A DNA stretch of 64,000 bases from a virus: IMG/VR virus record IMGVR_UViG_3300045988_080614. One strand, 5' to 3'. The position numbers and the translations under genes are program-made. The notes under the pieces are model-generated. The model saw only the letters and a list, made by a program, of their open reading frames with translations, did not search any database and was not told the DNA's origin. This document shows positions 5,004-34,371 of this stretch, in pieces; the stretch's first letter is position 1; each line of letters opens with the position of its first letter.

Positions 5004-8000
5004 TTAAAATCTTGCTATTACATTATCACAGAATTTATTTCCTTGTTCATCCTCTGTTATAGGAGGAAGACTTTCTAGTTTATCAATAGGTTGTGATGCA
5101 GTATAACCATTTTCAGCAGCTTTCTGTTTAATTGCAGCAAGTAAACTTGCTTGTGCAGATTGCTGTTGTTCCATAACAAAATTAGCCATATCTTGATTAT
5201 CTGTAATATCTGTATTATCAACATAATCATTAAGATTAGCTTTATATGCTTGTGGTTTAGGTACTACTGATTCCATATCTTCACTAGCATTACTATCATA
5301 CTCTACATATTGATTCTTTACTCCTAAAGGTTGTACTCTTTGATATGAAGCTATTAAACTATTAGGAGCATTTACTCTTTCAAAGTATAAGTCAGCCCCC
5401 TTATAATTAATATGAACATAAGGTAAATATTCAGGAGTACTTTTATCATCAAATGGTTTAGCAATTTTTTTATCATCCATAGATGAATTGAAATCAACTT
5501 TAACATCAAAATTTTCTGTTTCAAGATTAACTTCACTTACATAAGATGCCCCAGTAATATCTGGTACTAATGTTCTATCATCTAAATGATTTCTAAAATA
5601 TTGACCTATAAAAGTAGTTATATCAGCTTTCTCAAAGTACATATCTTCAAGAGTTTCTATATAATTACCAGTATTCATCTTCACTGCTACAGGAGCCAAA
5701 TGACTAAATCCATTAGGACTGAAACCTAATCCTTTATAATTACAGTAAAGAAATAGCTTAATAGCCATATCCTTACATTCATCATTAATGTTCATAAGTG
5801 TTTCCCAACTTCTAACATAGTCTTGTTTCTGTATATCAGTGATTCTACCTACATTGCTGAAAGTAAGAGATGGTGCTGGATTATACTTAGTAAACTTATT
5901 ATACTTTACTCTATTTATAATAGGTAACTGAGATAACTCTGGGTGAGCCTTCTTGAAAGCATCAAACTCAGCAGGGAATTTAGTAATATAATATTCTCTT
6001 TCAGATATAGGATTACCATCCTCATCCTTATAGTTATATTCACTAGTTTCTGCTAACATATAACTAATAAAATCATTATATATACTATTTCTCTGCTTTT
6101 CATTTAAATTACCATATCTAGTCATATCTTTTATAGTACTTATAATACTGGTATAAGTATTATTATAGTATGGAAAATACTTATTGAATAACTTCTTAGT
6201 AGATTCTACACCATAAGTAAAGAATGCCTGCAATATAGGTAATGGACTATTAATAACACCTTCTTCTGATAAATTAAATGAGAGTAATGATGTTCCTGTA
6301 AGAGAGTAATTAGCATCTTTCATAGGAGCTTCCAATACTTTTTCAACTTTTTCAATATTAATTATATCTGAAGAGATATAAGGTCCTGCTCCACCATTTT
6401 GAGTATCAGCTCTAGTAGCATTAGTAAATTCATTCAAATCACCTGCTAATTTATTGAGTCTTGCAAACATAAAGCCTACTTTTAATTGATTAGCATAGAA
6501 TTCATGACCTTCACTAGTATTAGCAGTATCTGCATCTTTTCTTGCTATAATATTACTTGCTAAGTCTTCATCTTTAAAATTATAATTTTCTATTTTAGTA
6601 TAGTAACTATTAACATTTGTGCCATTATTATAATTTTTATACTTATTAATAACATTAATAATGGCTTCTGCTAATGATACTCTATTATTCTGTACTTCTT
6701 TTACTATATCTCTTACAATAGGTTGATTAATTATAAGTGACATAGTATTAATTCCTACACCCATTCTTAATAATGCAAATGCACTAGAAGCAGTAATTTC
6801 ATTGAAGTTCATATCACCTGCAATAGGGTCTTTTGCATTATCTACAAAGGCTGCCAAGAAACTAGCAATATTTCTGGTAATAAATTCACCATCTACATTC
6901 TTAATATCATGTAAAGAATTATATTTATGACCATTAAATGTCAACTGATATTCTTCTTTAATACCAAGTTTAGTCTGCTGCATTAATGCATGAGAAGCAT
7001 TATTAGTAGCAGCCATAGGAATAAGTGATGCACCAGACATATTTCTTTGATGAAGAGTAACCCAAGTAGTAGGTACTAATGGATTAAGTTTTTCCTTATA
7101 TTTATCTGCTAAATCATCAAGTTCATCAAGACTAAGTTTCTCAAGTCCTTTTAAACCCCCTAATTTAGTAAGAGTTTCTTTATCAACATTATATAAGATA
7201 GTATTAATTCTAGCAGCTTTCTTTGGTTTATCAAAACCACCAGGTTCTAGAATACTCTTAGCAGTATCTTTATGTGATAATACACTCCACATAAGGTCAA
7301 TCATCAAAGAATCTCTTTGTTTCTTACTATTAGCCTTTGCATTATTATAAATACTTAACTTGTCATTTCCTTCTATTTTATCAAAGTCATAGTCATATGT
7401 ACTAAAAGAACTATTTATTAAGTACTTGGATTTGTTTTTATTAAACCATTCAGAGAATCTTGCTTGAGCAGTTTCAGATAGATTATATCTTTTGACATTA
7501 CTAGATTTTAACCATCCTTTAAACTCTTCGGTAATGCTTTCCATTTCCCAAAGTTCAAGATTTTCATCTTTATAATATCTATTAATATAATCCTGTAAAC
7601 CTTCTCCAAAATTTCTATCAATTTCTTCAAGAATATCCTTACTTGATTCTAATTGATAAAAATCATCCCAAGCTTTCTTAATGTTATAGTTATTTTTAGT
7701 AAACAAACTATGAAACATTACATAAACTTTATCAACATCATAATCAGAACCTGCTAAAGAAGTAATTTCTTTAGGTAGTATAATTACACTACCTACTTGT
7801 CTAGGTAAGAATCCCTTTATTCTAATATGTTGCATAGAATATTTATCCTCAGTAGGAACTCTATAACCTATTACTTCTCTATACTTTTCTGGTACTATAT
7901 AATTACCTTTACTATCTTTCTTGTTAATATCAAGTTCATGAGTATTAGGGTCTAGCAAAGCATTATACAATTCTTCTGTTGGACAAGGAAGATAAGCTTC

Positions 8001-24449: not shown

Positions 24450-25514
24450 TTATTCCATTTTATCTATCCAAGTTCTCAAATCATTAGAACTTTCAATATT
24501 TATTCCCATAGGAACTGTGGCTCCTGTAGAGAGATAATACCAAAGTTCTTTACCTACTTCCCAAGGTGCTTCAAGTTTAATTTGATTATTTTTACCAAGA
24601 TATAATGTACCTTCTACAAAAGTAAAATCACAATCCCATACAAGTGGAATCATATTAGACTTAGAAATTACTATATCTTTATAAGGTAAAATTGTGAAGT
24701 CTTTAAAGTATTCATCCTTTTCAATATTAAGTTTAAGAATTCTTGCATATAATCTACATTGATATGCATAATTCCACTCTATAAATGACTTATAGAAATT
24801 ATATGTAGGTTTATATGATGTCTTTACATCTACAGGTTGAATAGTTTTATTCTTATAATCTACTCTAAGAATATCAAACATGCATCTATAAGGAACACCA
24901 TCTATTTCTGCTTTAAACTTTAATTGATAAAGATTTTCACAATCATCAAAAGGATTATTCTTCTTAAAATATAATGCAGTTTGAGAACTTTCAATAAGAG
25001 CATTAGCCATCTGATGTGCTATATTATTAAGCTCTGTACTTATTAAGATTTTATCTTTAGCTAGGTACAATAAATTATAGTAATCAGATGCTCTTTCCTT
25101 AATTACTTTTGCTCTAGTTTCTGGTTTCCAATTTAACTGAAATCCATTAATATTTGTAGAATCTATAATAAGATTATCTGGTATCTTATACAATGAATCA
25201 TAAGTACTTGAATAACTATTAAATAAAGATTTTACAATAGTTTCTACTTTATCAGTAATAGGAGGAAATTCTGCTACTAAATACCTTCTTTCATATTCTT
25301 CAGGAGGGTCAGTAGTTAAACAATCTACTAAAGAACCTAACAATAAAGAAGGACTTTCAACCTTATCAAACAATGTATCTAAATGTTCAAATCCTTCTCT
25401 CTTAAATTTAGATATAGTAGAATAACTAAGAGCTTTATCAGCTCTATAATTTTCCTCAGAAGTTATCCATGATATATCATAAAGACTCTTCTTTCCATTT
25501 CCATTTATATCCAT
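24450..25514 (-). CDS. PD-(D/E)XK family nuclease (Cas4/RecB-like exonuclease)
   Basis: MFDILRVD...QPVDVKTSYKP is a D...D-x-K nuclease core. The track start at 25550 is TTG; ATG candidates are at 25544 and 25514. The 5' end overlaps the HNH gene. Confidence 0.45.
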   Translation of the reverse strand: MDINGNGKKSLYDISWITSEENYRADKALSYSTISKFKREGFEHLDTLFDKVESPSLLLGSLVDCLTTDPPEEYERRYLVAEFPPITDKVETIVKSLFNSYSSTYDSLYKIPDNLIIDSTNINGFQLNWKPETRAKVIKERASDYYNLLYLAKDKILISTELNNIAHQMANALIESSQTALYFKKNNPFDDCENLYQLKFKAEIDGVPYRCMFDILRVDYKNKTIQPVDVKTSYKPTYNFYKSFIEWNYAYQCRLYARILKLNIEKDEYFKDFTILPYKDIVISKSNMIPLVWDCDFTFVEGTLYLGKNNQIKLEAPWEVGKELWYYLSTGATVPMGINIESSNDLRTWIDKME

Positions 25515-26064
25515 AACAAGTTTTTCTTTTATTATTACATACATCTCCAATATGTCCAGTCATAGCTGGTTTATAATTAAAGCCTAAAGAAATTAAAGCA
25601 TCTTTACATGATGGAAATTCTGCAATTATTTTATTTGTTACAATATCTATTTGTAATACTGGTTTAAATCTTTTATAAATTGTATTTAAATTTTGACAAT
25701 TTTTAGATTGTGTAACACATCTAAGATTGTTTATATTATTATTAGAAGTATTACCATCAATATGATCAATAACCATATTCTTAGGTATATTTCCTTTATA
25801 TGTAATATAAACTAATCTATGAACTCTATAATCTTTTTTAATTCCATTATGTGTTAAATTAACATACCAATATCTTTGCTTAAAGAACTGCTTCAAAATT
25901 CTTTCCTTATAACATCTTTGAGATTTATTATCTGTTCCATAATGACTATTTAAAACAGATAAGTTTCCTTCTCTTATTTTAGGAAGGGCTTTAACAACTC
26001 CATTTCTACTTATAGCATAGTCTTCTAAGCCTGGAATAATTTTAAAATTTATATTCATTTCCAT
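25477..26064 (-). CDS. free-standing HNH homing endonuclease (NUMOD4 + HNH_3 type)
   Basis: IPGLEDYAISRNGVV (NUMOD4-like), IDHIDGNTSNNNINNLRCVTQSKN (HNH), and C-terminal GYKWKWK. Confidence 0.75.
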   Translation of the reverse strand: MEMNINFKIIPGLEDYAISRNGVVKALPKIREGNLSVLNSHYGTDNKSQRCYKERILKQFFKQRYWYVNLTHNGIKKDYRVHRLVYITYKGNIPKNMVIDHIDGNTSNNNINNLRCVTQSKNCQNLNTIYKRFKPVLQIDIVTNKIIAEFPSCKDALISLGFNYKPAMTGHIGDVCNNKRKTCYGYKWKWKEESL

Positions 26065-26570: not shown

Positions 26571-26874
26571 TAATAATACCAGTTAAAATATTAAGAAACT
26601 CCTTAAATTCTTCCTTATTATTAAGATTAATTACCTTAACATTAGGTTCTTTTGGCATAGGACCTCTTTTACCATGTGTTCTATATATACTCTTCTGTAC
26701 AGGAACAACTACTTTAGCTTCAATAGAATCTCTTTTAATCAAATCGTCAATAGTAGCTTCATCTACAGAACTATTACATTCAAATTGTACACCATTACTA
26801 CAAGTAATAATCTGAGTAATCTTATCTCCTAACTTAATCTCCTGATTAGTACCTTTAAAATAATACTTTTTCAT
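26554..26874 (-). CDS. hypothetical protein (106 aa)
   Basis: ORF with ATG start, overlapping both neighbours. Confidence 0.6.
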   Translation of the reverse strand: MKKYYFKGTNQEIKLGDKITQIITCSNGVQFECNSSVDEATIDDLIKRDSIEAKVVVPVQKSIYRTHGKRGPMPKEPNVKVINLNNKEEFKEFLNILTGIISGKCQ

Positions 26875-27524
26875 CTTTTAAATTTTATTTTATTGTTTAA
26901 ATGATTATTTATTTCATCCCACAAATTATATCTAAGTTTCTTATGATTCCTAGCATAATATGAAGGATGTTTTTCTTTAATTACATAATTATATTGAGAG
27001 ATATAAGGTTCAAAAGTTTTAGCTTCTTCACCAAATAATACATATACACAAGCAGTCATATATCTAGACATATTATATATTAGTTTAGATATAAAAGGTC
27101 TCCATAGTCCTAAATGAGAACTAGGGAGACCTACCTTACATGTTAATGCACAATTCAACATTAATACTCCTTGCTTCTCCCAATCTTCAAAACTGGGGTC
27201 AAAGATACTACTATTTTGTGGAATTTCATAATTGATAACTGATTCTTTTATAACTTGTAAGGATGGTGATAAATCTTTATCAAGTGTTTTTATATTGTTA
27301 CCAAAAGCAATTCCAGTAGCCTTACCTAATTGTGGATAAGGACTTAAACCTAATATAACTACCTTTAATTCAGATAATTTACAAGCTTTAAAACAATTAA
27401 AGATGTCATTATAATTAGGACATAAATTAACAGTATTGCTAGAATTAAGTGTATTAATTGTCTCATATAATATTTTCTTATCTATTACTTTTAACCAATC
27501 TCCAAAATATTCCTCTAAAGACAT
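26871..27524 (-). CDS. uracil-DNA glycosylase
   Basis: VVILGLSPYPQLGKATGIAFG (compare GQDPYH...G-x-A-x-G), GVLMLNCALT (compare GVLLLNTVLT), and EKHPSYYA (compare HPSPLS). Confidence 0.7.
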   Translation of the reverse strand: MSLEEYFGDWLKVIDKKILYETINTLNSSNTVNLCPNYNDIFNCFKACKLSELKVVILGLSPYPQLGKATGIAFGNNIKTLDKDLSPSLQVIKESVINYEIPQNSSIFDPSFEDWEKQGVLMLNCALTCKVGLPSSHLGLWRPFISKLIYNMSRYMTACVYVLFGEEAKTFEPYISQYNYVIKEKHPSYYARNHKKLRYNLWDEINNHLNNKIKFKR

Positions 27525-28183
27525 AATTTATCTATATTATCTACAAGAAGCTGTTGTATTTCCTCATTAACATTAATATTGGTAGGAGCCTTAACATGTC
27601 TTATAAACTTATCAATATCATTATTAATGATAACTGTCATAGTAGTAAAACCACTTATTATAGAAAAATATCTAGAAACAGTACTACAATATTCAATAAG
27701 ATACTTTTGAATACCTTTACATACAACATTATCACTATTGAAAACTTTAGGACTTACTCTAAGTATAAGCTCTGTGGTAGCTGATGTTCTTCTAGGAGGT
27801 CTAATAGTAGATAATACTAATGGTTCTAAATTACTATTAAGTATTAAACCTCTCATTCCATAATAAAGATTACCATCTTTATCTCGAATTTTATTTAATT
27901 CTCCTGCTTCTCTAATTAAACTTAACTCTTTTAAAAGAGGACCAAAAGTTTTTCTTTCATTTATACTAGTAGAAGAAGAAGTAAATAGTGGAATTATTCC
28001 TCTCAAAGATAAAGAATTATAAATAGGAATCTCTGTAACCTCACCATTAAATATATGATTTGTCATATATATAGAGAATTGGTTATTCTCTGTTCCTAAT
28101 AAAGGTATATTTGTTGAACGGAGAGAGGCTGACGTAACACCAAGAAAGATATTTATATTATTTTTAATATTTTCACTTATCAT
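27515..28183 (-). CDS. hypothetical protein (222 aa), translationally coupled to the E1-like gene
   Basis: The ATG overlaps the E1-like stop (ATGA at 28183). No motif recognised. Confidence 0.65.
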   Translation of the reverse strand: MISENIKNNINIFLGVTSASLRSTNIPLLGTENNQFSIYMTNHIFNGEVTEIPIYNSLSLRGIIPLFTSSSTSINERKTFGPLLKELSLIREAGELNKIRDKDGNLYYGMRGLILNSNLEPLVLSTIRPPRRTSATTELILRVSPKVFNSDNVVCKGIQKYLIEYCSTVSRYFSIISGFTTMTVIINNDIDKFIRHVKAPTNINVNEEIQQLLVDNIDKLCL

Positions 28184-29133
28184 TAATCTTCTTCTTTTAA
28201 GTACATCATATTACAATCATATTCTATAAAGAAAGGTAATTGCTTTATCATAGGAACAATTTCATTAGCACAGAAATTAACTACATTATTTACAATAAAA
28301 GAAGCTATCATACAAGCCATAAAAGTAGTTTGTTTTAAACTACATACAGTTTCATCTGCTTCTTCATCAGAAAATAAGAATTCTTTTTCATATCTATCCT
28401 GATTATATGTATCTGTACCTACAATAGTGAGTATTTGTAAAGTATCAAATGACAATCTGGCATCAATATATAGACATTTAGATTTATCTTTCTGTAATTC
28501 TACATGTTTTCTCCAGTTATTAAAGAATACCTTTCTAGCTTCCATATTATCAAAACCACAAATCATAATATCAGAAGTAAAACTATTCCTAGTATATAAT
28601 TCTCGCATAGCAAATATATCAGTATATTTACTATAATAGCTAACAGTTTCTGCTATGGCATCCACTTTATATTTATCTATATCCTTGATACCAAACATTT
28701 GTCCAGCAAGATTAACTTCCTCAACTTTATCATTATCAAAGATATAGATACTCTTAGGATGTATTCTAGCTAATTGAAATATAGCATTTGAAGAAATACC
28801 TCCTGCACCTCCTACAATAATAACTTTCTCTTTAATTTTATTAAACCATTCTGCTCCTGAAAATCTAGCAGTTTCATCATGATAATCTTCACTTATAGGA
28901 GGAATTTCCTGATGTTGATTTTTAATAACTTCATTCAAAAAAGCTTCATCTTCTTCTGATAATATAGATTCTGATTCTTCTTCTACTACTTCTTCAGGTC
29001 CTAATATTGATGTTGTTTCTCTGTCGGTTATCTCTAAAGGAGCAATAGCAACTTCTGGAACATTAACTGTAGTATTTACTATTTGTTCCATATTAACCTC
29101 CAAAGGTGGAGTTATAGTTGATTCTTCATTCAT
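28183..29133 (-). CDS. ThiF/MoeB/E1-like adenylyltransferase with an acidic N-terminal extension
   Basis: KVIIVGGAGGISSNAIFQLARI is a Rossmann G-x-G-G-x-G motif. IFDNDKVEEVNLAGQ resembles the ThiF D-x-D-x-V-x-x-S-N-L-x-R-Q block. Confidence 0.7.
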   Translation of the reverse strand: MNEESTITPPLEVNMEQIVNTTVNVPEVAIAPLEITDRETTSILGPEEVVEEESESILSEEDEAFLNEVIKNQHQEIPPISEDYHDETARFSGAEWFNKIKEKVIIVGGAGGISSNAIFQLARIHPKSIYIFDNDKVEEVNLAGQMFGIKDIDKYKVDAIAETVSYYSKYTDIFAMRELYTRNSFTSDIMICGFDNMEARKVFFNNWRKHVELQKDKSKCLYIDARLSFDTLQILTIVGTDTYNQDRYEKEFLFSDEEADETVCSLKQTTFMACMIASFIVNNVVNFCANEIVPMIKQLPFFIEYDCNMMYLKEED

Positions 29134-29137
29134 AATT

Positions 29138-29980
29138 TTAAATAATAAAACGTTCTACTTCATCCTCTATAACTTCAATAAAGGAATTAGTTTTAAATGT
29201 ATGTAATTTCTGTAATACACCATAAGCACATATAGCCATTTGTGAATCTTCAAGATAACCTTCTTCTGCTAAATTATCATCAAAGGCTTCTGTTACAAGA
29301 AATTCTACAAAATAACCAATAAAAGCTCTATAATTTGCTAAACCTTTTTGTCCCTCTCCAAATCTTTTAGAAAATACTGTAGGCATTTTTTGAACCCATT
29401 CATTGAGGTCTTTTGGAGTAAAAATAGGACTACCTATAAGTAATTGTTTAACAATATTATTTAAGTCTGTTTCATTAAATTTATACTTATTATAATCAAT
29501 AGATTCATCTGTATCTACTCCTGTTTGAACAGCAGTATTAGTCTTAGAGAAAGGTATATTTGCTTCCTTATATAAAGGTGTTGCCTTTAAAGTAGGTTCA
29601 ACAATAAGATTAGTACGAGGCTCTCTACTAATATTTGTATTTTTAATCTTATCCTTACTAATTTCTTCAATTCTACTAAATAGGTCTGTATAACCAATAT
29701 TTACAGTAGGCTTTTCAATATTCAAGAAGAAATATTCTATTTCATAAGATTCTATAGCATCATATTCATCATTACCTATATTAATAGTTTCTTCACCAAA
29801 GAACTCATATTCAAGTACTTCTGTTACATGAGGAATATGTTTAACTTTTCTTGTAATTGCCGCAGTATATTGACCGGCATTATTAACAATCAAAGATAAG
29901 AAATTATTCATATCAGAACCTTCTTCTTGAAGAGTTCCAAGGTCAGTTCCACTGAAAAACGTTGACATCTGGTCATGTGA
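29138..29980 (-). CDS. JAMM/MPN (JAB) metallopeptidase-domain protein, exon 2
   Basis: The frame is open 4 codons upstream of the track ATG: SHDQMSTFFSGTD. Joined to exon 1 it gives GLMH-SHDQMSTFFSGTD, which is H-x-H-x7-S-x2-D. Confidence 0.75.
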   Translation of the reverse strand, partial: SHDQMSTFFSGTDLGTLQEEGSDMNNFLSLIVNNAGQYTAAITRKVKHIPHVTEVLEYEFFGEETINIGNDEYDAIESYEIEYFFLNIEKPTVNIGYTDLFSRIEEISKDKIKNTNISREPRTNLIVEPTLKATPLYKEANIPFSKTNTAVQTGVDTDESIDYNKYKFNETDLNNIVKQLLIGSPIFTPKDLNEWVQKMPTVFSKRFGEGQKGLANYRAFIGYFVEFLVTEAFDDNLAEEGYLEDSQMAICAYGVLQKLHTFKTNSFIEVIEDEVERFII

Positions 29981-30045
29981 CTTAATGTTATCCTTACAGC
30001 TCTTTATCTGTAAGTTCTTGTTTTTATAATAAAAATAGTTAATTA

Positions 30046-30077
30046 TTTGCTTATTTAAAATCTAATTTGTACCTTTG
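30046..30077 (+). promoter_or_regulatory. Bacteroidota-type promoter for the LAGLIDADG ORF
   Basis: TTTG(30046-30049)-N20-TACCTTTG(30070-30077), 11 nt before the first ATG. Confidence 0.55.
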
Positions 30078-30088
30078 CACATAATAAA

Positions 30089-30979
30089 ATGATTTATATT
30101 ATGGGAAAATTAAAATTAGAAAATAAAAAAGATTTAATTTTATCTCTTTATAAAGAAGGTAAAACTCCAATAGAAATATCTAAAATATTAGGTACTTATT
30201 TACAGCCTATAACTAATTTATTAAAAGCTTATATACCTAATATTAAATTTACTCCTAATAAGGGGAATGTTCATTATTTTCATACTATAGATAGTTATGC
30301 AAAAGCTTATATTGTAGGTTTTATAGCTGCTGATGGAGCTTTAGTAAAACCTAAACATGGTAATGATGCTTTAACTATAACAATTAAATATGAAGATAAG
30401 TCTGTTTTAGATTTTATAAAATCTGAAATAGGTAATGAACATAAAATTCAAGAAATAATTCGACCTTCTAGTTTTGATAAAACTAAAATAATTCATCATG
30501 CTAGATACTGTATAACAGATAAAAATATAGCAGATGATTTACATAAATTAGGTATAGATAATAATAAAAGTTTAACTATGGGAAATATTATAGAAAATAT
30601 TCCATATAAATATAGAGATGCTTTTATTATAGGATATTTTGATGGAGATGGTTCTGTAACTATTAGAAACAGATTATATTCTAATGATAGAAATTTTTTA
30701 TGTAAGGATTTCTCTCTATATGTACAAATTAGAGGGACTATTAAATTTCTATCTGGAATATGTAATCATTTAAAAATAACTACTTCTCATATACATCAAA
30801 TTGATTCTATACCACAATTAAGTTTTGCAAATAAAAAAGATACTTATAGATTCTTTCAATGCTATAAAAATCTTCCATTTTATTATAAAAGAAAGTATGA
30901 TAAATTCTTACAAAGAATAAATCATCCTTCTTATGACAAATATAAACAAGTTCAGACTATATCATCATCTATAGAATAA
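30089..30979 (+). CDS. LAGLIDADG homing endonuclease (double-motif), antisense to its host intron
   Basis: YIVGFIAADGAL and FIIGYFDGDGSV are two LAGLIDADG motifs. An alternative ATG is at 30101. The last 10 codons are antisense to the intron core block GATATAGTCTGA. Confidence 0.8.
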   Translation: MIYIMGKLKLENKKDLILSLYKEGKTPIEISKILGTYLQPITNLLKAYIPNIKFTPNKGNVHYFHTIDSYAKAYIVGFIAADGALVKPKHGNDALTITIKYEDKSVLDFIKSEIGNEHKIQEIIRPSSFDKTKIIHHARYCITDKNIADDLHKLGIDNNKSLTMGNIIENIPYKYRDAFIIGYFDGDGSVTIRNRLYSNDRNFLCKDFSLYVQIRGTIKFLSGICNHLKITTSHIHQIDSIPQLSFANKKDTYRFFQCYKNLPFYYKRKYDKFLQRINHPSYDKYKQVQTISSSIE

Positions 30980-31146
30980 TCTATAGAGTTGGGCACTCGT
31001 GTCACTATTATATTCTGCGTGATTAGCAGTTTCAAGTGTTAGTCGTTGAACCTTCAAAGAGGTTTTAACCTCTAAGCTTGGCTGCTGATTGTGGCTTGTC
31101 AACCAGTTTCCAGCAATTCACCCAATTTTATATGCACTCACAGTTA

Positions 31147-31440
31147 ATGCATTAAGCCTTGCTGACATTCTAATAAGTCATGTTCTATCATATAATTACA
31201 GATTTCTGCACTCTTATCAAACTCAGTATAAGTAGCAGAACCATAATCCATAAGACAGAAATCTTTAGCAGTTAATACTAAAGAATTATCTTCAAATCTA
31301 CCAGTATAATCATAGAATAATACTCCACTATATTCATTATTAGGAAATCTAGCACACAAGAATCTAATCTTTTCTTCTAGTTCTGGAGTAATAATTAACT
31401 TATATGTATTATCTTGTTTCTTTAATATATTTTTGTCCAT
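31147..31440 (-). CDS. JAMM/MPN metallopeptidase-domain protein, exon 1
   Basis: PNNEYSGVLFY carries the conserved Glu of the MPN fold. It ends QQGLMH, immediately before the intron TAA. Confidence 0.75.
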
Positions 31441-32524
31441 AATTATAATTTATAAATTCTAATATATTCCGTATTGCCACATTAATATATTTTACATTAA
31501 GAATATATACAGGTTCAATAGTAGTATCAGTATCTATAATCCTCATTTTAACAGGTATATTCTTAAATGTAAATAAGACATCAGTACTAGGACTACAAGA
31601 ACTGTGTCTATTACTATCTTCTTCAGTAAAACATCCTTTATAAAAGACTGCTTTTATAAGAATTTTAGCTCTTACTAACTCATTTAAATCTGTAGAAAGT
31701 TCTTTATTATTAAATCTTTTATTATAAATTGCTATAAACTCATTGCTTATTAATCTAATTAAAGAAGCATCATTATCAGCAAAACTATAAGTATTATTTA
31801 CATATTTAAAAGTAAATACTTTTCTATTTATAAGATTACGTATGGCTTCTTTTATAATAAATGAAATTTCTGAAGAGGTTCTACAACTAGTATCTGAAAA
31901 AATTATTTCTTTATTACTATTATTTCTACCAATATATTCCATTCTGTAATAAGGAACTCCTGCTATAGATTCTACTGTAACATATCTAGCTAATTCCACA
32001 CAGAATAATCTCCATATATTTTCATTATTTTCATCTCTAAGAATAGTACAAGTTGTTCCAATAGGACCTCCTCCTAAACAAGGTCTCTGAAAATAAGCTT
32101 TACCATGACTTAAAGAACCTGAAGGTAAATGGGAATGTGTATAATTACTTTCATATAAAACTTTAGTGAAAGTAGTAACAATCATTTCAAATCTTTTAGC
32201 TTGTTTTCCTGCATAATCAAGTGGTACTTTAACATATAAGTCATGAATATCTACACTATTATCTTTTTCATTAGTAATAGTTACATTAGGAAAATGAACT
32301 AATATAATATATGAAAATTCACATAATGGAAGTAAAGGAGAATTTAAAGTATCTTCCAAGTTTTCACCTTCTGCTATTAAAGTTTCTACAGCATCTTTAA
32401 AATCTTTATCTACTTGAAAGTCTACTTTAGTTTCACCAAAGAAACTTTTAAATATTTCATATACTTTAAGAGCTTCTTCTGTAGGAGTATAATATTTATT
32501 TCTTATCTGTTCTTTTATATCCAT
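31409..32524 (-). CDS. hypothetical protein (371 aa); possible E2/UBC-like core (very tentative)
   Basis: The track start at 32548 is TTG inside a hairpin; the first ATG (MDIKEQ) is at 32524. YTHSHLPSGSLSHGKAYFQRPCLGGGPIG loosely resembles the UBC HPN...C-L segment. The 3' end overlaps the JAMM exon 1 start. Confidence 0.55.
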   Translation of the reverse strand: MDIKEQIRNKYYTPTEEALKVYEIFKSFFGETKVDFQVDKDFKDAVETLIAEGENLEDTLNSPLLPLCEFSYIILVHFPNVTITNEKDNSVDIHDLYVKVPLDYAGKQAKRFEMIVTTFTKVLYESNYTHSHLPSGSLSHGKAYFQRPCLGGGPIGTTCTILRDENNENIWRLFCVELARYVTVESIAGVPYYRMEYIGRNNSNKEIIFSDTSCRTSSEISFIIKEAIRNLINRKVFTFKYVNNTYSFADNDASLIRLISNEFIAIYNKRFNNKELSTDLNELVRAKILIKAVFYKGCFTEEDSNRHSSCSPSTDVLFTFKNIPVKMRIIDTDTTIEPVYILNVKYINVAIRNILEFINYNYGQKYIKETR

Positions 32525-32528
32525 AAGT

Positions 32529-32570
32529 AATAAAAAAGAAGGGAGCAAATATATTACTATACTTACTCCC
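32529..32570 (-). terminator. hairpin plus T-run between the 237-aa gene and the 371-aa gene
   Basis: Minus strand reads GGGAG(32570-32566)-20 nt-CTCCC(32545-32541) followed by TTCTTTTTTATT, ending 4 nt before the ATG at 32524. Confidence 0.45.
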
Positions 32571-32588
32571 TATTAGATTTTTTATAAA

Positions 32589-33302
32589 TTACATGTTTTT
32601 AAACATATCATTAAGTTCATTTGATGAATATGGAGAATCTGATTCCTCTTCCTTTGAAGCATTTGAAGTATCTGAAGTGACATTACCAATAATAGCAATA
32701 TTATCAATATCAATATCATCAGAATAATCCATACCTGCATTCTCCATTTCTTTCAAAAGACTTTCAATAACTTTCCTAAGTTCTGCTTTAGTAACATAGC
32801 TACTAAGGTCAGTAGTCTTCATAGCAGGCTTATTAGGAACTTCCTTCTTTGCAGGAGCTGCTTTAGCTGTAGAAGCTGAAGCATCTGCTATTGCAGGAGC
32901 TGCTTCTTTGTTAAGAATCTTCTGCAAATCTTCTGTCTTACAGTTAGTATAATTCTTACCATAAGTCTTCTTAACTACTTCTGTAAGGTTCTTAACCTTA
33001 ATCTCCTCAATGATAGCCTTTCTATCAAGCTTTGCTCCACTTCTAATCTTCTTTGAAGCATTAGTAATCATAAATACCAAGTTATTAGTAGTAGTTCCCT
33101 TATAAGGAACATCATGTGGAAGGATAGCAGCATCATTCTTCAATTCAATCTTAGTAAGACCCTCAAAGAATGTACAATCAGTATAATCAATACCTGCCTT
33201 AGTAAGGTCTGCTTTGAGTTCTGCCAATGTTGTTGCTGCACTTTCAATAACTTGTGTCTTGTGAGTCTTTGTAGGAATCACTGTAATCTTTCTTTTTTCC
33301 AT
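32589..33302 (-). CDS. hypothetical protein (237 aa) with a possible N-terminal beta-grasp (ubiquitin-like) domain
   Basis: Residues 1-85 have a strand-strand-helix-strand pattern (ITVIP, QVIES, TLAELKADLTKAGI, TFFEG, IELK, LVFMIT) ending KKIRSG. An A/P/K-rich linker follows, then a second copy of the AEL+..L.K...AG(I/M)DY(T/S)D helix. Confidence 0.5.
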   Translation of the reverse strand: MEKRKITVIPTKTHKTQVIESAATTLAELKADLTKAGIDYTDCTFFEGLTKIELKNDAAILPHDVPYKGTTTNNLVFMITNASKKIRSGAKLDRKAIIEEIKVKNLTEVVKKTYGKNYTNCKTEDLQKILNKEAAPAIADASASTAKAAPAKKEVPNKPAMKTTDLSSYVTKAELRKVIESLLKEMENAGMDYSDDIDIDNIAIIGNVTSDTSNASKEEESDSPYSSNELNDMFKNM

Positions 33303-33348: not shown

Positions 33349-34371
33349 TCAAAAAGGTAAATCATCATCCATATTTGGTGCTTTAGTCTTATTAAAAGCA
33401 TTATTAAATTCTTCAATAAGTCTTTTTTTACCAAAATAATGATATATATCTGAATAATCTTTTGCTTTATCAATTAAAGGACAATGAATTATCTCAAAAC
33501 CTGTTTTTAATCTAAGATTATAGGCATCTATTTCACCTGCTGAATCTCCATCAAATGCTATATAAATATGGTTATATCTTTTTTGTAAACAATTAATTGC
33601 AGAATCACTTAACTCTGTATTTTCTGATTGAACATATATACAGGGTATATTAACATTAGACCATAGACAGATACTATCTTTCAATGATGAACATATAAGC
33701 AATGTATCTCCTGTCTCTGGAATTTTAGACCACAAACCAATAACACTCTTGTCATTGGAAGATGTCCATTTGTAACCATTTTTATTATAGGGTTGATAAA
33801 TTTTCTTGGTGATATTCCCTTCTTTTCTTTCAATATAACAATATGCTAGTTTATCACAAGCAAATGTATATCTTTTATTATCTTTATATATAATTTTATG
33901 ACTAATAGGATATACTTCAACATACTTTAATAGATTTATATTACATCCATAAGATTCCCAATACTCAACATCATAATTTCTCCATTCTCTAGTTTTAACC
34001 TCTAGTCTGATTTGACTACTACTTATTGTAGCTGAGTTATGTTTAATTTGAGATTTAGAGATATTAATCTGCTTAGTATTAATATTCATATCTTTACTTA
34101 TCTTATCTACTAGTTCTATAAAACTAATATTGTAGATTTGCATAAGTAAATCAAATAAAGACCCTTGTTCTCCTGTTGCAAAGTCTTTATAATGTATATG
34201 TATACCATCACTTGAATATAATCCAAATGAAGGTTTAGAATCATTCCTTAAAGGGCTATTCATTCTAAAAGGAACTTGTGTAATACCAAAGTAGAAATTA
34301 AGTATTTGACCCTCATCTACTTTGTTTAATATATCTTTTAAAGTTATTGAAGTATATCCATTGCTAATCAT
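33349..34371 (-). CDS. DnaG/TOPRIM-type DNA primase with a degenerate zinc-binding region
   Basis: SPLRNDSKPSFGLY...YKDFATGEQGSLFDLLM aligns with the primase CPFH-x-PSF...CFGCG-x-GD pattern but lacks all the Cys residues. TOPRIM motif IAFDGDSAGE. C-terminus is MDDDLPF. Confidence 0.65.
   Translation of the reverse strand: MISNGYTSITLKDILNKVDEGQILNFYFGITQVPFRMNSPLRNDSKPSFGLYSSDGIHIHYKDFATGEQGSLFDLLMQIYNISFIELVDKISKDMNINTKQINISKSQIKHNSATISSSQIRLEVKTREWRNYDVEYWESYGCNINLLKYVEVYPISHKIIYKDNKRYTFACDKLAYCYIERKEGNITKKIYQPYNKNGYKWTSSNDKSVIGLWSKIPETGDTLLICSSLKDSICLWSNVNIPCIYVQSENTELSDSAINCLQKRYNHIYIAFDGDSAGEIDAYNLRLKTGFEIIHCPLIDKAKDYSDIYHYFGKKRLIEEFNNAFNKTKAPNMDDDLPF

What the first reader, a model, noticed from the sequence alone, without database searches (positions are those of the whole stretch)
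27515..33302. E1-like / JAMM / possible E2-like and ubiquitin-like cassette inside a lytic-phage replication module
Five consecutive minus-strand genes form the cassette. (1) A 237-aa protein whose first ~85 residues read like a beta-grasp fold ending KKIRSG, followed by an A/P/K-rich linker. (2) A 371-aa protein with THSHLP...RPCLGGG, loosely like the UBC HPN...Cys segment. (3) A JAMM/MPN protein whose H-x-H-x7-S-x2-D motif appears only after intron removal. (4) A ThiF/MoeB/E1-like adenylyltransferase (GGAGGISS Rossmann motif plus DNDKVEEVNLAGQ). (5) A 222-aa orphan coupled by an ATGA overlap. E1 + JAB (with or without E2 and Ubl) gene sets are known in bacteria as CBASS Cap2/Cap3, Bil (ISG15-like) defence systems, PRTRC cassettes of mobile elements, and CysO/Mec+ or MoaD/MoeB sulfur-carrier pathways. 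I do not recognise such a set as part of the standard crAss-like replication module. Inference: the phage may run its own Ubl conjugation/deconjugation or thiocarboxylate chemistry. Possible roles are countering host Ubl-based defence, modifying its own proteins, or making a modified nucleotide.
Basis: partly seen in the sequence, partly recalled or inferred. Interest (0 to 1): 0.85.

Follow-up and report, generated by a model that had tools for sequence, protein, structure and literature searches.

The report
Phage ubiquitin-like activation and cleavage cassette
This crAss-like gut phage carries a conserved gene block for a ubiquitin-like protein, the enzyme that would activate it and a protease that would trim it. 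The block lies among the DNA-replication genes, is shared by cultured phages such as crAss001, and seems never to have been studied as a system.

Summary
The five minus-strand genes are real and are conserved in the same order, between primase and uracil-DNA glycosylase (UDG). This holds in about 160 related phage contigs, in crAss001 (gp79–gp75) and in Flavobacterium phage FpV4.

Supported:
- **E1-like enzyme.** 28183..29133 matches Pfam ThiF above its cutoff. Its ATP-site residues and one Cys are invariant.
- **JAMM protease.** It is split by a 1166-nt group I intron. The splice junction is confirmed by intron-less relatives that are 100% identical to the spliced product.
- **Ubiquitin-like domain.** The first 89 aa of the 237-aa protein fold as a ubiquitin-like (Ubl) β-grasp (pLDDT above 90; Foldseek hits are SUMO and ubiquitin). 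A flexible tail ends in a near-invariant Ser-Gly. What follows the Gly varies widely, is cut off as a separate gene in some phages, and is only 5 aa in one.

Not supported: the 371-aa protein being E2-like. HMM, profile and fold searches found nothing. It belongs to a large phage-only family with invariant Ser-His, Cys and Glu-Ser, so it is probably an enzyme of unknown type. The 222-aa protein stays an orphan.

The cassette is not an oddity of this genome. It is a standard part of the replication module in Steigviridae.

Best reading: a phage-encoded Ubl processing and activation system whose target is unknown. I rate it a new variant of a known kind, testable in cultured phages.

The parts
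33036..33302 (-). Ubiquitin-like β-grasp domain (residues 1-89 of the 237-aa protein), ending in the flexible tail K-K-I-R-S88-G89
   Evidence: AF2 on a 99-sequence alignment gives pLDDT ~90-97 for residues 1-84, with strands 4-10, 17-21, 43-47, 65-67, 70-72, 75-81 and a helix at 26-35. The tail 85-90 has pLDDT below 50. Foldseek against PDB returns SUMO1 6uyo (E 2.8e-3, prob 1.00), the TINCR Ubl 7mrj (TMt 0.69), ubiquitin and kindlin F0. S88 and G89 are identical in 99% of 142 distinct homologues.
32589..33035 (-). C-terminal extension of the Ubl protein (residues 90-237): a three-helix module (94-132), a disordered A/P/K linker, a helix at 172-188 and an acidic C-terminal helix
   Evidence: AF2 secondary structure. 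The extension is hypervariable in length and sequence across relatives, from 5 aa to about 210 aa. A free-standing HNH endonuclease gene separates it from the Ubl in L033, L069, L074 and cr106_1. The HeH/SAP-like reading of residues 94-132 is my inference from the sequence pattern only.
31409..32524 (-). 371-aa protein of a large phage-restricted family. Invariant N85, Y128, S131-H132, C149-x-G151, E185-S186, G189, P191. Probably an enzyme; the E2-like claim is untested beyond negative searches.
   Evidence: 2336 cluster representatives at E<=1e-3. Invariant residues over 145 distinct sequences. No hit in Pfam, NCBIfam, PADLOC, PDB sequences or PDB folds. BFVD returns only uncharacterised crAss-like homologues. 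The gene overlaps the JAMM start by 32 nt.
31147..31440 (-). JAMM/MPN+ protease, exon 1 (residues 1-98; contains E36 and the first His of H-x-H)
   Evidence: The PADLOC JAB hit (E 3.3e-5) spans residues 5-118 and so crosses the junction. E36, H98, H100, S108 and D111 are each kept in at least 95% of 149 sequences.
29981..31146 (-). Group I intron (1166 nt) interrupting the JAMM H-x-H codons. The ribozyme core lies at 31156..30937.
   Evidence: Rfam RF00028, 69.8 bits (gathering 50), E 2.4e-17. The intron is absent from L003, L005, L006, L008 and L010-L012, and present in L009 and L013.
30089..30979 (+). LAGLIDADG homing-endonuclease ORF (296 aa) inside the intron, on the antisense strand
   Evidence: Pfam LAGLIDADG_3 E 3.8e-8. 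PHROG 4645 'endonuclease' E 1.7e-37.
29138..29980 (-). JAMM/MPN+ protease, exon 2 (residues 99-378: the rest of the JAMM motif plus a ~250-aa C-terminal region of unknown function)
   Evidence: The family profile hits CSN5 (E 0.013) and archaeal JAMM1 (E 0.05) at the motif.
28183..29133 (-). E1-like (ThiF/MoeB superfamily) adenylating enzyme. An acidic, variable N-terminal ~85 aa is followed by a single ~230-aa adenylation domain. There is no CxxC zinc site, no separate Cys domain and no UFD.
   Evidence: Pfam ThiF 55.4 bits against a cutoff of 28.1. NCBIfam ThiF PRK08644 E 2.4e-17. The family profile hits MccB (7e-11), UBA5 (3e-10), PaaA, TcdA, UBA3, ThiF, Cap2 and BubCD in PDB. Invariant residues: R90, G109/G111/G112, D133, D135, N141, G144, Q145, K156, D195, R200, C264.
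27515..28183 (-). 222-aa orphan and fifth gene of the block. Its start is coupled to the E1 stop (TAATG) and it overlaps the UDG start by 10 nt.
   Evidence: Homologues sit at the same position in most loci. There is no Pfam, NCBIfam, PADLOC or PDB hit and no invariant Cys or His.
33349..34371 (-). Upstream flank: DnaG-type primase (ends ...DDDLPF)
   Evidence: 47% identical to crAss001 gp80, annotated 'DNA primase'.
26871..27524 (-). Downstream flank: uracil-DNA glycosylase
   Evidence: 47% identical to crAss001 gp74, annotated 'uracil-DNA glycosylase'.

Best explanation
The block is a phage-encoded ubiquitin-like (Ubl) processing and activation module, built into the replication operon of Steigviridae crAss-like phages and FpV4-like Flavobacterium phages.

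Shown:
- a β-grasp Ubl whose flexible tail ends in a near-invariant Ser-Gly;
- a JAMM/MPN+ metalloprotease with a complete catalytic motif;
- a minimal E1-like adenylating enzyme with an intact nucleotide site and one invariant Cys;
- two further conserved partners, one of which (371 aa) has the residue conservation of an enzyme;
- strict co-inheritance and fixed order of these genes.

Inferred mechanism:
1. The Ubl is made as a precursor with a variable C-terminal extension.
2. The JAMM protease cuts after Gly89 and exposes the Gly carboxylate.
3. The E1-like enzyme adenylates that carboxylate with ATP. It may also hold the Ubl on Cys264, which I place by eye at the position of MoeB Cys187 (recalled as equivalent to ThiF Cys184).
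4. The activated Ubl is passed on, most plausibly through the 371-aa protein (invariant Cys149, Ser131-His132, Glu185-Ser186), to phage or host protein targets.
5. The JAMM protease could also reverse the conjugation.

The target and the biological role are unknown. Candidates are replisome regulation and interference with host Ubl-based defence.
For: - E1: Pfam ThiF above its cutoff. The family profile hits only E1-superfamily structures. ATP-site residues and C264 are invariant in 153 sequences.
- JAMM: the full E...HxH...S..D motif is kept in at least 95% of 149 sequences. PADLOC JAB scores 3.3e-5 across the splice junction. The profile hits CSN5 and archaeal JAMM1.
- Ubl: confident AF2 β-grasp with a disordered six-residue tail. 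Nearly all of the top 50 Foldseek hits are ubiquitin-fold domains.
- Tail and extension: S88 and G89 are kept in 99% of 142 sequences, and the residue after Gly and everything downstream vary freely.
- Natural 'experiments': in L033, L069, L074 and cr106_1 an HNH endonuclease gene splits the ORF two residues after SG, leaving a 92-aa stand-alone Ubl (...KSGKF*...RSGIC*). In L121 the Ubl ORF ends KSGNEKKH*, and no ORF matching the extension lies in the ~115 nt before the next gene.
- Linkage: Ubl and E1 each occur in 74 phage records with the same organism breakdown. The order Ubl, 371-aa protein, JAMM, E1 is kept in every locus with enough flank, across E1 identities down to ~35%. The genes overlap or abut.
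- Precedent: in type I Bub operons a JAB peptidase cleaves a Ubl-fusion protein to generate the active Ubl (PMC11601596). In λ/T1 tail-assembly genes, Iyer et al. predicted from sequence that a JAB peptidase releases the Ubl domain of protein I at its C-terminal Gly (PMC1779556).
Against: - No E2 or E3 is recognisable. The 371-aa protein gave nothing in any HMM, profile or fold search, and its model is mediocre exactly at the conserved loop (pLDDT below 50 for residues 127-152).
- The Ubl ends in Ser-Gly, not Gly-Gly, in most members.
- The E1 lacks the Arg of the NLxRQ motif (NLAGQ family-wide). It also lacks the zinc site, a Cys domain and a UFD.
- The Pfam Prok-JAB score is below its cutoff (16.5 against 25).
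- All Foldseek E-values for the Ubl are above 1e-3 (best 2.8e-3).
- No cleavage, adenylation or conjugation has been observed.
Confidence: 0.62

Rival explanations
1. Sulfur-carrier pathway. The Ubl is a ThiS/MoaD/CysO-type carrier. The JAMM protease trims it, as Mec+ does for CysO and QbsD does for QbsE. The E1 adenylates it and a thiocarboxylate forms. The 371-aa protein, with its invariant Cys, uses that sulfur to make a thiolated nucleotide, cofactor or DNA/RNA modification, which would fit the nucleotide-metabolism genes nearby.
For: - The best named HMM hits of the E1 are ThiS adenylyltransferases: NCBIfam PRK08644 at 2.4e-17 and TIGR02354 at 1.7e-14.
- It is a minimal single-domain E1 like ThiF and MoeB.
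- Invariant C264 lies where MoeB C187 sits (recalled as equivalent to ThiF C184). I read this by eye from the MoeB sequence and the alignment.
- FpV4 and L116 have an SGG tail.
- The split variants carry a 2-residue tail after Gly. From my own knowledge, QbsE carries GG-CF that a JAMM enzyme removes.
- Neighbouring genes are UDG, dUTPase and RNR.
Against: - The block contains no rhodanese, cysteine desulfurase, PP-loop ATPase or ThiG/MoaE-like partner (Pfam and NCBIfam scans of all five proteins).
- All NCBIfam ThiF/MoeB scores are far below the family cutoffs (63 against 159 bits).
- The tail is Ser-Gly in most members.
- Foldseek ranks SUMO and ubiquitin well above ThiS/MoaD-type structures, although PDB composition biases this.
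- The carrier is usually fused to a long extension that looks DNA-binding, which is atypical for sulfur carriers.
Confidence: 0.15
2. No Ubl chemistry at all. The β-grasp is only an adaptor domain of a replisome-associated DNA-binding protein. The E1-like enzyme adenylates a different substrate, such as a peptide (as MccB and PaaA do) or a nucleoside (as TcdA does). The JAMM protein is a general protease or a scaffold.
For: - The best PDB profile hits of the E1 are MccB, UBA5, PaaA and TcdA.
- No E2 was found.
- The E1 lacks the RQ arginine.
- The Ubl protein has an acidic C-terminal tail. Such tails look like replisome docking motifs, and the primase here ends in DDDLPF.
Against: - The near-invariant Ser-Gly at the end of a disordered tail, followed by freely varying sequence, is hard to explain for a mere adaptor.
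- The extension is dispensable (L121) or separable (cr106_1), while the Ubl is always kept.
- Ubl, JAMM and E1 are never found apart in the loci examined.
- The E1 has no MccB/PaaA-type N-terminal peptide-clamp domain. Its N-terminus is acidic, variable and absent in some members.
Confidence: 0.1
3. Counter-defence device. The phage JAMM protease strips host Ubl-type conjugates, such as CBASS cGAS conjugates made by Cap2 or Bil conjugates on virion proteins. The phage Ubl and E1 act as decoys or competitors for the host machinery. This is an alternative about biological role and is compatible with the core biochemistry of the best explanation.
For: - PADLOC E1-E2 (Cap2) models hit the E1 at up to 4e-9, and the PADLOC JAB model hits the protease at 3.3e-5.
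- Bacterial Ubl pathways are proposed or shown to act in antiphage immunity (PMC11601596).
Against: - The block sits in the replication operon between primase and UDG, and is translationally coupled to UDG. It is not in an early or accessory region.
- It is conserved in phages of hosts as different as Bacteroides and Flavobacterium.
- The similarity to Cap2 and BilD is generic E1 similarity confined to the Rossmann half.
Confidence: 0.1

Closest known systems
Type I Bub (bacterial ubiquitination-like, formerly 6E.1/DUF6527) operons
   Same: Both have a β-grasp Ubl made as a fusion with a downstream protein, a JAB/JAMM peptidase and a minimal E1. In Bub the peptidase cleaves the fusion to expose the Ubl C-terminal Gly, and conjugation uses unconventional (oxyester) intermediates (PMC11601596).
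   Different: In Bub the Ubl is fused to an E2 and the JAB to the E1. Here all are separate genes and the fusion partner is a variable extension that is not an E2. No DUF6527 (BubE) homologue was found. The cassette is carried by lytic phages in a replication operon, not in bacterial defence islands. The BubCD hit is weak (E 5e-4).
λ/T1-type tail assembly proteins I (Ubl) and K (JAB + NlpC/P60)
   Same: This is the other case of a Ubl with a conserved C-terminal Gly, followed by an extra C-terminal domain, encoded next to a JAB peptidase in tailed phages (PMC1779556).
   Different: That system has no E1 and lies in the tail-assembly cluster. The crAss cassette has an E1 and two extra conserved proteins and lies in the replication module. 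I found no sequence relationship between the two.
Bil (BilABCD) and CBASS type II Cap2/Cap3
   Same: Both combine an E1-superfamily adenylation domain with a JAB peptidase, and Bil also has a Ubl. The PADLOC E1-E2 and JAB models give weak hits.
   Different: [quoted passage not shown] Here the E1 is a single ~230-aa domain, there is no recognisable E2 and no CD-NTase. The BilD hit is E 0.007.
Sulfur-carrier systems ThiS-ThiF, MoaD-MoeB, CysO-Mec+-MoeZ
   Same: All pair a minimal E1 with a small β-grasp carrier that has a C-terminal Gly, and some add a JAMM trimming enzyme. The best named HMM hits of the E1 are ThiF models.
   Different: No sulfur-transfer or sulfur-acceptor enzymes are present. 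The tail is Ser-Gly rather than Gly-Gly. All equivalog cutoffs are missed by a wide margin.
PRTRC (ParB-related, ThiF-related cassette) of plasmids and conjugative elements
   Same: Both are mobile-element cassettes with a ThiF-family protein and small partner proteins. TIGR03736 hits the E1 at 5.1e-8.
   Different: The score is 32.6 bits against a cutoff of 144.75. No PRTRC protein A-F or ParB model hits any of the other four proteins.

Membership tests
E1 / ThiF-MoeB superfamily (PF00899) | Match to the family HMM above the curated cutoff | tested here: met
   Pfam ThiF E 6.2e-15, 55.4 bits against a cutoff of 28.1, covering residues 92-306.
E1 / ThiF-MoeB superfamily (PF00899) | Nucleotide-binding and catalytic residues: GxGxxG, Asp at the end of β2, Lys, the DN..R Mg2+/phosphate motif and the N-terminal Arg finger | tested here: met
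   G109/G111/G112, D133/D135, K156, D195-N196..R200 and R90 are kept in at least 98% of 153 sequences. One exception: the Arg of NLxRQ is Gly (NLAGQ) throughout the family.
E1 / ThiF-MoeB superfamily (PF00899) | Structural zinc site (two CxxC pairs), as in MoeB and ThiF | tested here: not met
   There is no CxxC motif. Only one invariant Cys (C264) exists in the domain.
E1 / ThiF-MoeB superfamily (PF00899) | Cys that takes the activated C-terminus (ThiF C184 / MoeB C187 position, or a Cys domain) | tested here: inconclusive
   C264 is 100% conserved. By eye it lines up with MoeB C187 just before the conserved helix (sequences). The HMM alignment to MoeB did not extend that far.
JAMM / MPN+ metalloproteases | E...H-x-H-x7-S-x2-D zinc and catalytic motif | tested here: met
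   E36, H98, H100, S108 and D111 are present in the spliced product and kept in at least 95% of 149 sequences.
JAMM / MPN+ metalloproteases | Match to a family HMM above the curated cutoff | tested here: not met
   Pfam Prok-JAB E 0.0082, 16.5 bits against a cutoff of 25. Supporting sub-threshold hits: PADLOC JAB 3.3e-5 over residues 5-118, and CSN5 at 0.013 with the family profile.
Ubiquitin-like β-grasp modifiers | β-grasp fold | tested here: met
   AF2 pLDDT 88-97 over residues 1-80 with β-β-α-β-β-β order. Foldseek hits are SUMO1, ubiquitin, the TINCR Ubl and kindlin F0, with prob 0.99-1.00 and TM (target) 0.55-0.69. E-values are only 3e-3 to 1e-2.
Ubiquitin-like β-grasp modifiers | Conserved Gly at the end of a flexible C-terminal tail, exposed or exposable by cleavage | tested here: met
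   S88-G89 is kept in 99% of 142 sequences. The tail has pLDDT below 50. Natural ORF ends lie 2-5 residues after Gly. Actual cleavage was not tested.
Ubiquitin-like β-grasp modifiers | Sequence membership in a known Ubl family (ubiquitin, ThiS, MoaD, Urm1...) | tested here: not met
   No Pfam or NCBIfam hit for the full protein or for the 89-aa domain. The PDB profile search gave no Ubl hit.
UBC / E2 and prokaryotic E2-like families | Match to UBC or Prok-E2 HMMs, or a UBC-like fold | tested here: not met
   No Pfam hit in the window protein or in 64 homologues. Foldseek against PDB gave no E2 among 176 matches and a best E of 0.98. hhalign against UBE2D2, UBC9 and UBC13 gave prob 0.1%.
UBC / E2 and prokaryotic E2-like families | Catalytic Cys downstream of an HPN-like motif | tested here: inconclusive
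   Y128-x-H-S131-H132 and C149 are invariant. The spacing is 17 residues, against about 8 as I recall it for canonical E2s, and the context differs. This is a resemblance only.
Bil (BilABCD) | [quoted passage not shown] | tested here: not met
   A single adenylation domain of about 230 aa. PADLOC BilD E 0.007. No E2 was found.
CBASS type II (Cap2/Cap3) | E2-E1 fusion acting on an adjacent CD-NTase | tested here: not met
   PADLOC E1-E2 hits cover only the Rossmann part (for example residues 98-180, E 4e-9). Annotated relatives show no CD-NTase within about 6-7 kb of the E1. In the window, one search lists ORFs only across 25-36 kb and none of them was scanned for a CD-NTase.
PRTRC cassette | NCBIfam PRTRC models for ThiF, proteins A-F and ParB | tested here: not met
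   TIGR03736 scores 32.6 bits against a cutoff of 144.75. No other PRTRC model hits any cassette protein.
Sulfur-carrier pathways (ThiS/MoaD/CysO) | Gly-Gly terminus plus sulfur donor and acceptor enzymes in the operon | tested here: not met
   The tail is Ser-Gly-Ala here, and SGG only in FpV4 and L116. None of the five proteins has a rhodanese, desulfurase or synthase domain.
Group I introns (RF00028) | Covariance-model score above gathering, a U before the 5' splice site, a terminal G, and precise absence from relatives | tested here: met
   69.8 bits against 50. Junction sequence. Intron-less alleles.

The most novel reading that the evidence does not exclude
The cassette is a complete virus-encoded protein-conjugation pathway of bacteriophages. 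The 371-aa family would be a new, non-UBC class of Ubl-transfer enzyme (an E2/E3 analogue using invariant Cys149 and/or Ser131-His132). It would attach the phage Ubl to replisome or host-defence proteins during crAss-like phage infection.
Probability: 0.3. Interest if true: 0.85.

Novelty: new variant of a known kind. Interest (0 to 1): 0.72.

Why it matters
- Ubiquitin-like conjugation in bacteria has recently emerged as an antiphage strategy (CBASS Cap2/Cap3, Bil, Bub). A Ubl-E1-JAMM set carried by the phages themselves, fixed in the replication operon of a whole family of abundant human-gut phages, would be the viral counterpart.
- It could reveal how crAss-like phages regulate replication or evade host immunity.
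- It also flags a large phage-only protein family (more than 2300 sequence clusters) with an enzyme-like invariant core and no known relatives.
- The system is experimentally reachable because crAss001, DAC15/DAC17 and FpV4 are cultured.
- Current GenBank labels mislead. The E1 is called 'thiamine biosynthesis protein', the JAMM protein is called 'metalloprotease domain containing protein', and the other three are 'hypothetical protein'.
- Seven full-text searches found no paper discussing these genes as a system.

Tried and rejected
- **E2 reading of the 371-aa protein.** I tested it six ways and every one was negative:
  - Pfam, NCBIfam and PADLOC on the protein;
  - Pfam on 64 homologues;
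  - PDB sequence profiles from 64 and 149 sequences;
  - AF2 followed by Foldseek against PDB;
  - Foldseek against BFVD, which returned only uncharacterised crAss-like homologues;
  - hhalign against three canonical E2s.
- **Cellular relatives of the 371-aa family.** The genome-contig scan found only two MAG contigs, probably phage.
- **222-aa orphan.** PDB profile and Pfam member scans were empty.
- **Intron in the split Ubl genes.** Rfam found no group I intron in L033. The insert is a free-standing HNH endonuclease gene instead.
- **PRTRC, Bil, Cap2/3 and sulfur-carrier membership.** All rejected on HMM cutoffs and missing partner genes.
- **Near-identical DNA in GenBank phages.** None found.
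- **PF27945.** This Pfam accession is precomputed on one close homologue (P0211). It is not in the local Pfam copy, so I could not identify it.
- **Weak histone H2B similarity** in the Ubl protein's C-terminal region (E ~0.07-0.1). I treated it as a compositional or chance match.

Full report
**1. What is in the sequence**

ORF listing confirms five consecutive minus-strand genes between a DnaG-type primase (34371..33349) and a uracil-DNA glycosylase, UDG (27524..26871):
- a 237-aa protein (33302..32589);
- a 371-aa protein (32524..31409 from the ATG that matches the homologues' N-termini);
- a split JAMM gene;
- a 316-aa ThiF-like protein (29133..28183);
- a 222-aa protein (28183..27515).

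The genes are tightly packed:
- The 371-aa gene overlaps the JAMM start by 32 nt.
- JAMM and E1 are 4 nt apart.
- The 222-aa gene overlaps UDG by 10 nt.

**2. The intron and the JAMM protease**

- Joining 31440..31147 to 29980..29138 gives a 378-aa product with ...GLMH|SHDQMSTFFSGTD.
- The 1166-nt insert follows a U and ends in G.
- A sensitive Rfam scan scores its 5' 220 nt as a group I intron: RF00028, 69.8 bits against a gathering score of 50, E 2.4e-17. The whole-window scan had missed it.
- The insert carries a LAGLIDADG endonuclease ORF on the opposite strand (Pfam 3.8e-8, PHROG 1.7e-37).
- Seven near-identical IMG/VR contigs have an uninterrupted gene. L003 is 100% identical to my spliced product over all 378 residues. 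DNA alignment places the insertion at 31146/29981.
- The spliced protein hits the PADLOC JAB model (3.3e-5, residues 5-118, across the junction) and Pfam Prok-JAB below cutoff. Its family profile hits CSN5 and archaeal JAMM1 at the motif.
- E36, H98, H100, S108 and D111 are each kept in at least 95% of 149 distinct homologues.

I accept it as a JAMM/MPN+ metalloprotease carrying a ~250-aa C-terminal region of unknown function.

**3. The E1-like enzyme**

- Pfam ThiF is above cutoff (55.4 against 28.1 bits).
- The NCBIfam best hits are ThiF models, but far below their equivalog cutoffs. PRTRC_ThiF scores 32.6 against 144.75.
- A 13-sequence family profile hits only E1-superfamily structures: MccB 7e-11, UBA5 3e-10, PaaA, TcdA, UBA3, ThiF, Cap2, BubCD. 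No subfamily is favoured.
- The nucleotide-site residues are invariant. The Arg of NLxRQ is Gly family-wide. There is no CxxC zinc site, Cys domain or UFD.
- One Cys (C264) is 100% conserved. By eye it sits where MoeB C187 does (recalled as equivalent to ThiF C184), immediately before the conserved helix. This is an inference, because the HMM alignment did not reach that region.
- The first ~85 residues are acidic, variable and absent in some relatives.

**4. The ubiquitin-like protein**

- The protein has no HMM hit.
- AlphaFold2 on a 99-sequence alignment gives pLDDT 88-97 for residues 1-80, with β(4-10)-β(17-21)-α(26-35)-β(43-47)-β-β-β(75-81). The alignment combines close homologues with diverse ones recovered using a divergent-clade profile.
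- A tail follows at 85-90 (KIRSGA) with pLDDT below 50. After it come three helices (94-132), a disordered linker, a helix at 172-188 and a C-terminal helix.
- Nearly all of the top 50 Foldseek PDB hits are ubiquitin-fold domains: SUMO1, ubiquitin, the TINCR Ubl, kindlin F0, DIX and the MoaD/ThiS-like Mth1743. Probabilities are 0.99-1.00 and target-normalised TM is 0.55-0.69, but E-values are only 3e-3 to 1e-2.

The comparative data are the strongest argument:
- Ser88-Gly89 is identical in 99% of 142 distinct sequences.
- In distant clades the motif reads ...P(K/E)x(T/V)KSG (SGG in FpV4 and L116).
- The next residue and everything after it vary freely. The downstream part ranges from acidic or coiled-coil segments to helical modules and from about 60 to 210 aa.
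- In L033, L069, L074 and RefSeq phage cr106_1, a free-standing HNH endonuclease gene sits exactly there. It leaves a 92-aa stand-alone Ubl ending ...KSGKF* or ...RSGIC*, and a separately initiated remainder.
- In L121 the ORF ends KSGNEKKH*. No ORF matching the extension lies in the ~115 nt before the next gene.

This is the signature of a Ubl precursor with a dispensable C-terminal extension.

**5. The two unknowns**

*The 371-aa protein*
- It belongs to a very large family: 2336 representatives of 50%-identity clusters at E<=1e-3 and 714 at E<=1e-30.
- The family appears phage-restricted, since only two MAG contigs turned up among 185,579 species genomes.
- N85, Y128, S131, H132, C149, G151, E185, S186, G189 and P191 are invariant or nearly so across 145 distinct sequences. 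That pattern argues for an enzyme.
- Every test for E2 or any known family was negative: Pfam, NCBIfam and PADLOC, PDB profiles, Foldseek against PDB (best E 0.98, no UBC), BFVD (only uncharacterised crAss-like proteins) and hhalign against canonical E2s.
- The model is mediocre (mean pLDDT 66) and is worst at the conserved loop 127-152. E2-likeness is therefore unsupported rather than excluded.

*The 222-aa protein*
- It has homologues at the same position in most loci. After HMM iteration these include the FpV4-like clade.
- It has no database hit and no invariant Cys or His.

**6. Distribution and linkage**

- tblastn finds the E1 in 74 of 50,697 GenBank phage records: crAss001, DAC15/17, the PhiCrAssBcn phages, six 'crNNN_1' genomes, bajarodcaudo virus 1 and 29 Flavobacterium psychrophilum phages. 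The Ubl domain occurs in 74 records with the identical organism breakdown.
- The closest named relative, cr85_1, is Crassvirales; Steigviridae; Asinivirinae.
- In crAss001 the block is gp79-gp75, between primase gp80 and UDG gp74. gp76 is annotated 'thiamine biosynthesis protein, ThiF', gp77 is 'metalloprotease domain containing protein', and the rest are hypothetical.
- FpV4 has the same set after primase and UDG.
- The order Ubl, 371-aa protein, JAMM, E1 is kept in every locus with enough flanking sequence across two sets of 80 IMG/VR loci. One set is centred on the window and the other on FpV4, reaching environmental phages. E1 identity falls to about 35%.
- So the cassette is not an oddity of this genome. 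It is a fixed component of the replication module of one crAss-like family and of FpV4-like phages, and the search did not detect it in any other GenBank phage record.

**7. Mechanism**

Shown:
- the folds and motifs above;
- gene linkage;
- separability of the extension.

Inferred:
1. The JAMM protease cleaves after Gly89.
2. The E1 adenylates the exposed carboxylate, possibly with a covalent step on C264.
3. The Ubl is transferred onward, most plausibly via the 371-aa protein, to unknown targets.
4. The JAMM protease may also deconjugate.

Precedents:
- In type I Bub operons a JAB-E1 fusion cleaves a Ubl-E2 fusion to make the active Ubl. That chemistry runs through oxyesters and the E1 lacks a catalytic Cys (PMC11601596).
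- For the λ/T1 tail-assembly Ubl (protein I) and the JAB protein K, Iyer et al. predicted from sequence analysis that the JAB domain releases the Ubl at its C-terminal Gly (PMC1779556).

Rivals:
- a sulfur-carrier pathway;
- an E1 acting on a substrate other than the Ubl;
- a counter-defence role.

Each is laid out in its own section with evidence for and against and a refuting result.

**8. Novelty**

- Seven full-text searches found no paper that treats these crAss-like genes as a Ubl system, or that mentions ThiF, JAB or E1 together with crAss-like phages.
- GenBank labels for the E1 are 'thiamine biosynthesis protein' and, in one record, 'E1 enzyme family protein'.
- The parts are known kinds. 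What is new is the combination, its phage carriage, its place in the replication operon and the two family-specific partners. I therefore rate it a new variant of a known kind.

Noticed in passing
window 29981..31146 (intron); 30089..30979 (+): The group I intron's LAGLIDADG homing-endonuclease ORF is encoded antisense to the intron RNA. The ribozyme core occupies only the 5' ~220 nt (31156..30937). The whole-window Rfam gathering scan missed the intron. Only two of eleven near-identical relatives (L009, L013) carry it.
   Followed up: yes
L120 2988-5527; L146 1353-3104; L147; L161 5257-7546: In at least three other, distant lineages the JAMM gene is interrupted at the same place as in the window, directly after the first His of H-S-H. 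The N-terminal fragments end ...GLVH, ...ALIH and ...GLIH. This looks like a recurrent insertion hot-spot in the catalytic codons. The nature of these inserts was not examined.
   Followed up: partly
L153 3718-6195; L120 5517-6487: The 371-aa gene of L153 is split inside its own invariant Y-x-H|S-H motif (the fragment ends ...DYMH and the next continues SHICSIP...). The E1 gene of L120 is split at the conserved N-L-G|Q motif. Mobile insertions in this cassette seem to target the most conserved motifs. The JAMM and 371-aa targets both encode H-S-H.
   Followed up: no
L033 ~6445-7020; L069; L074; L088 (cr106_1) 1881-2396: A free-standing HNH/NUMOD4-type endonuclease gene is inserted two codons after the Ser-Gly of the Ubl gene. 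It converts the gene into two separately translated ORFs ('genes in pieces'). Rfam finds no intron there.
   Followed up: yes
L018, L023, L031, L033, L064, L078 (UDG homologue): The uracil-DNA glycosylase downstream of the cassette is split into residues ~1-59 and ~62-207 by a 0.5-1.3 kb insertion in six loci. This is probably another intron or endonuclease insertion.
   Followed up: no
window 33349..33369 (primase C-terminus); L083 gp49 C-terminus: The primase ends ...NMDDDLPF, which resembles the acidic DDDIPF-type tail of bacterial SSB. FpV4 gp49, the fifth cassette gene there, ends ...VEDLPF. The Ubl protein also ends in a conserved acidic/aromatic helix (SPYS..E.D.MF). These may be docking peptides for a common replisome partner.
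   Followed up: no
window 32589..32900 (Ubl protein residues ~135-237): The family profile gives weak hits (E 0.07-0.3) to the α1-L1-α2 region of histone H2B. This is probably compositional, but the region is predicted helical and follows a three-helix module that may bind DNA.
   Followed up: partly
window 58301..59996: A cluster of ten tRNA genes on the plus strand (Glu, Gln, Arg, Ala, Met, Asn, Ile, Lys, Thr, Leu). GC skew flips sign at about 53-54 kb, marking the switch from minus-strand to plus-strand genes.
   Followed up: no
window 25477..26064 (-): A 195-aa ORF with an HNH-type motif (...RVHRLVYITYKGNIPKNMVIDHIDGNTSNNNINNL...) sits among the recombination and repair genes. It is probably another free-standing homing endonuclease. 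It was not scanned.
   Followed up: no
protein P0211 (85% identical to the 237-aa protein): This protein carries a precomputed Pfam accession, PF27945.1, that is absent from the local Pfam copy. A very recent Pfam family may therefore already cover part of the Ubl protein. I could not retrieve its name.
   Followed up: partly
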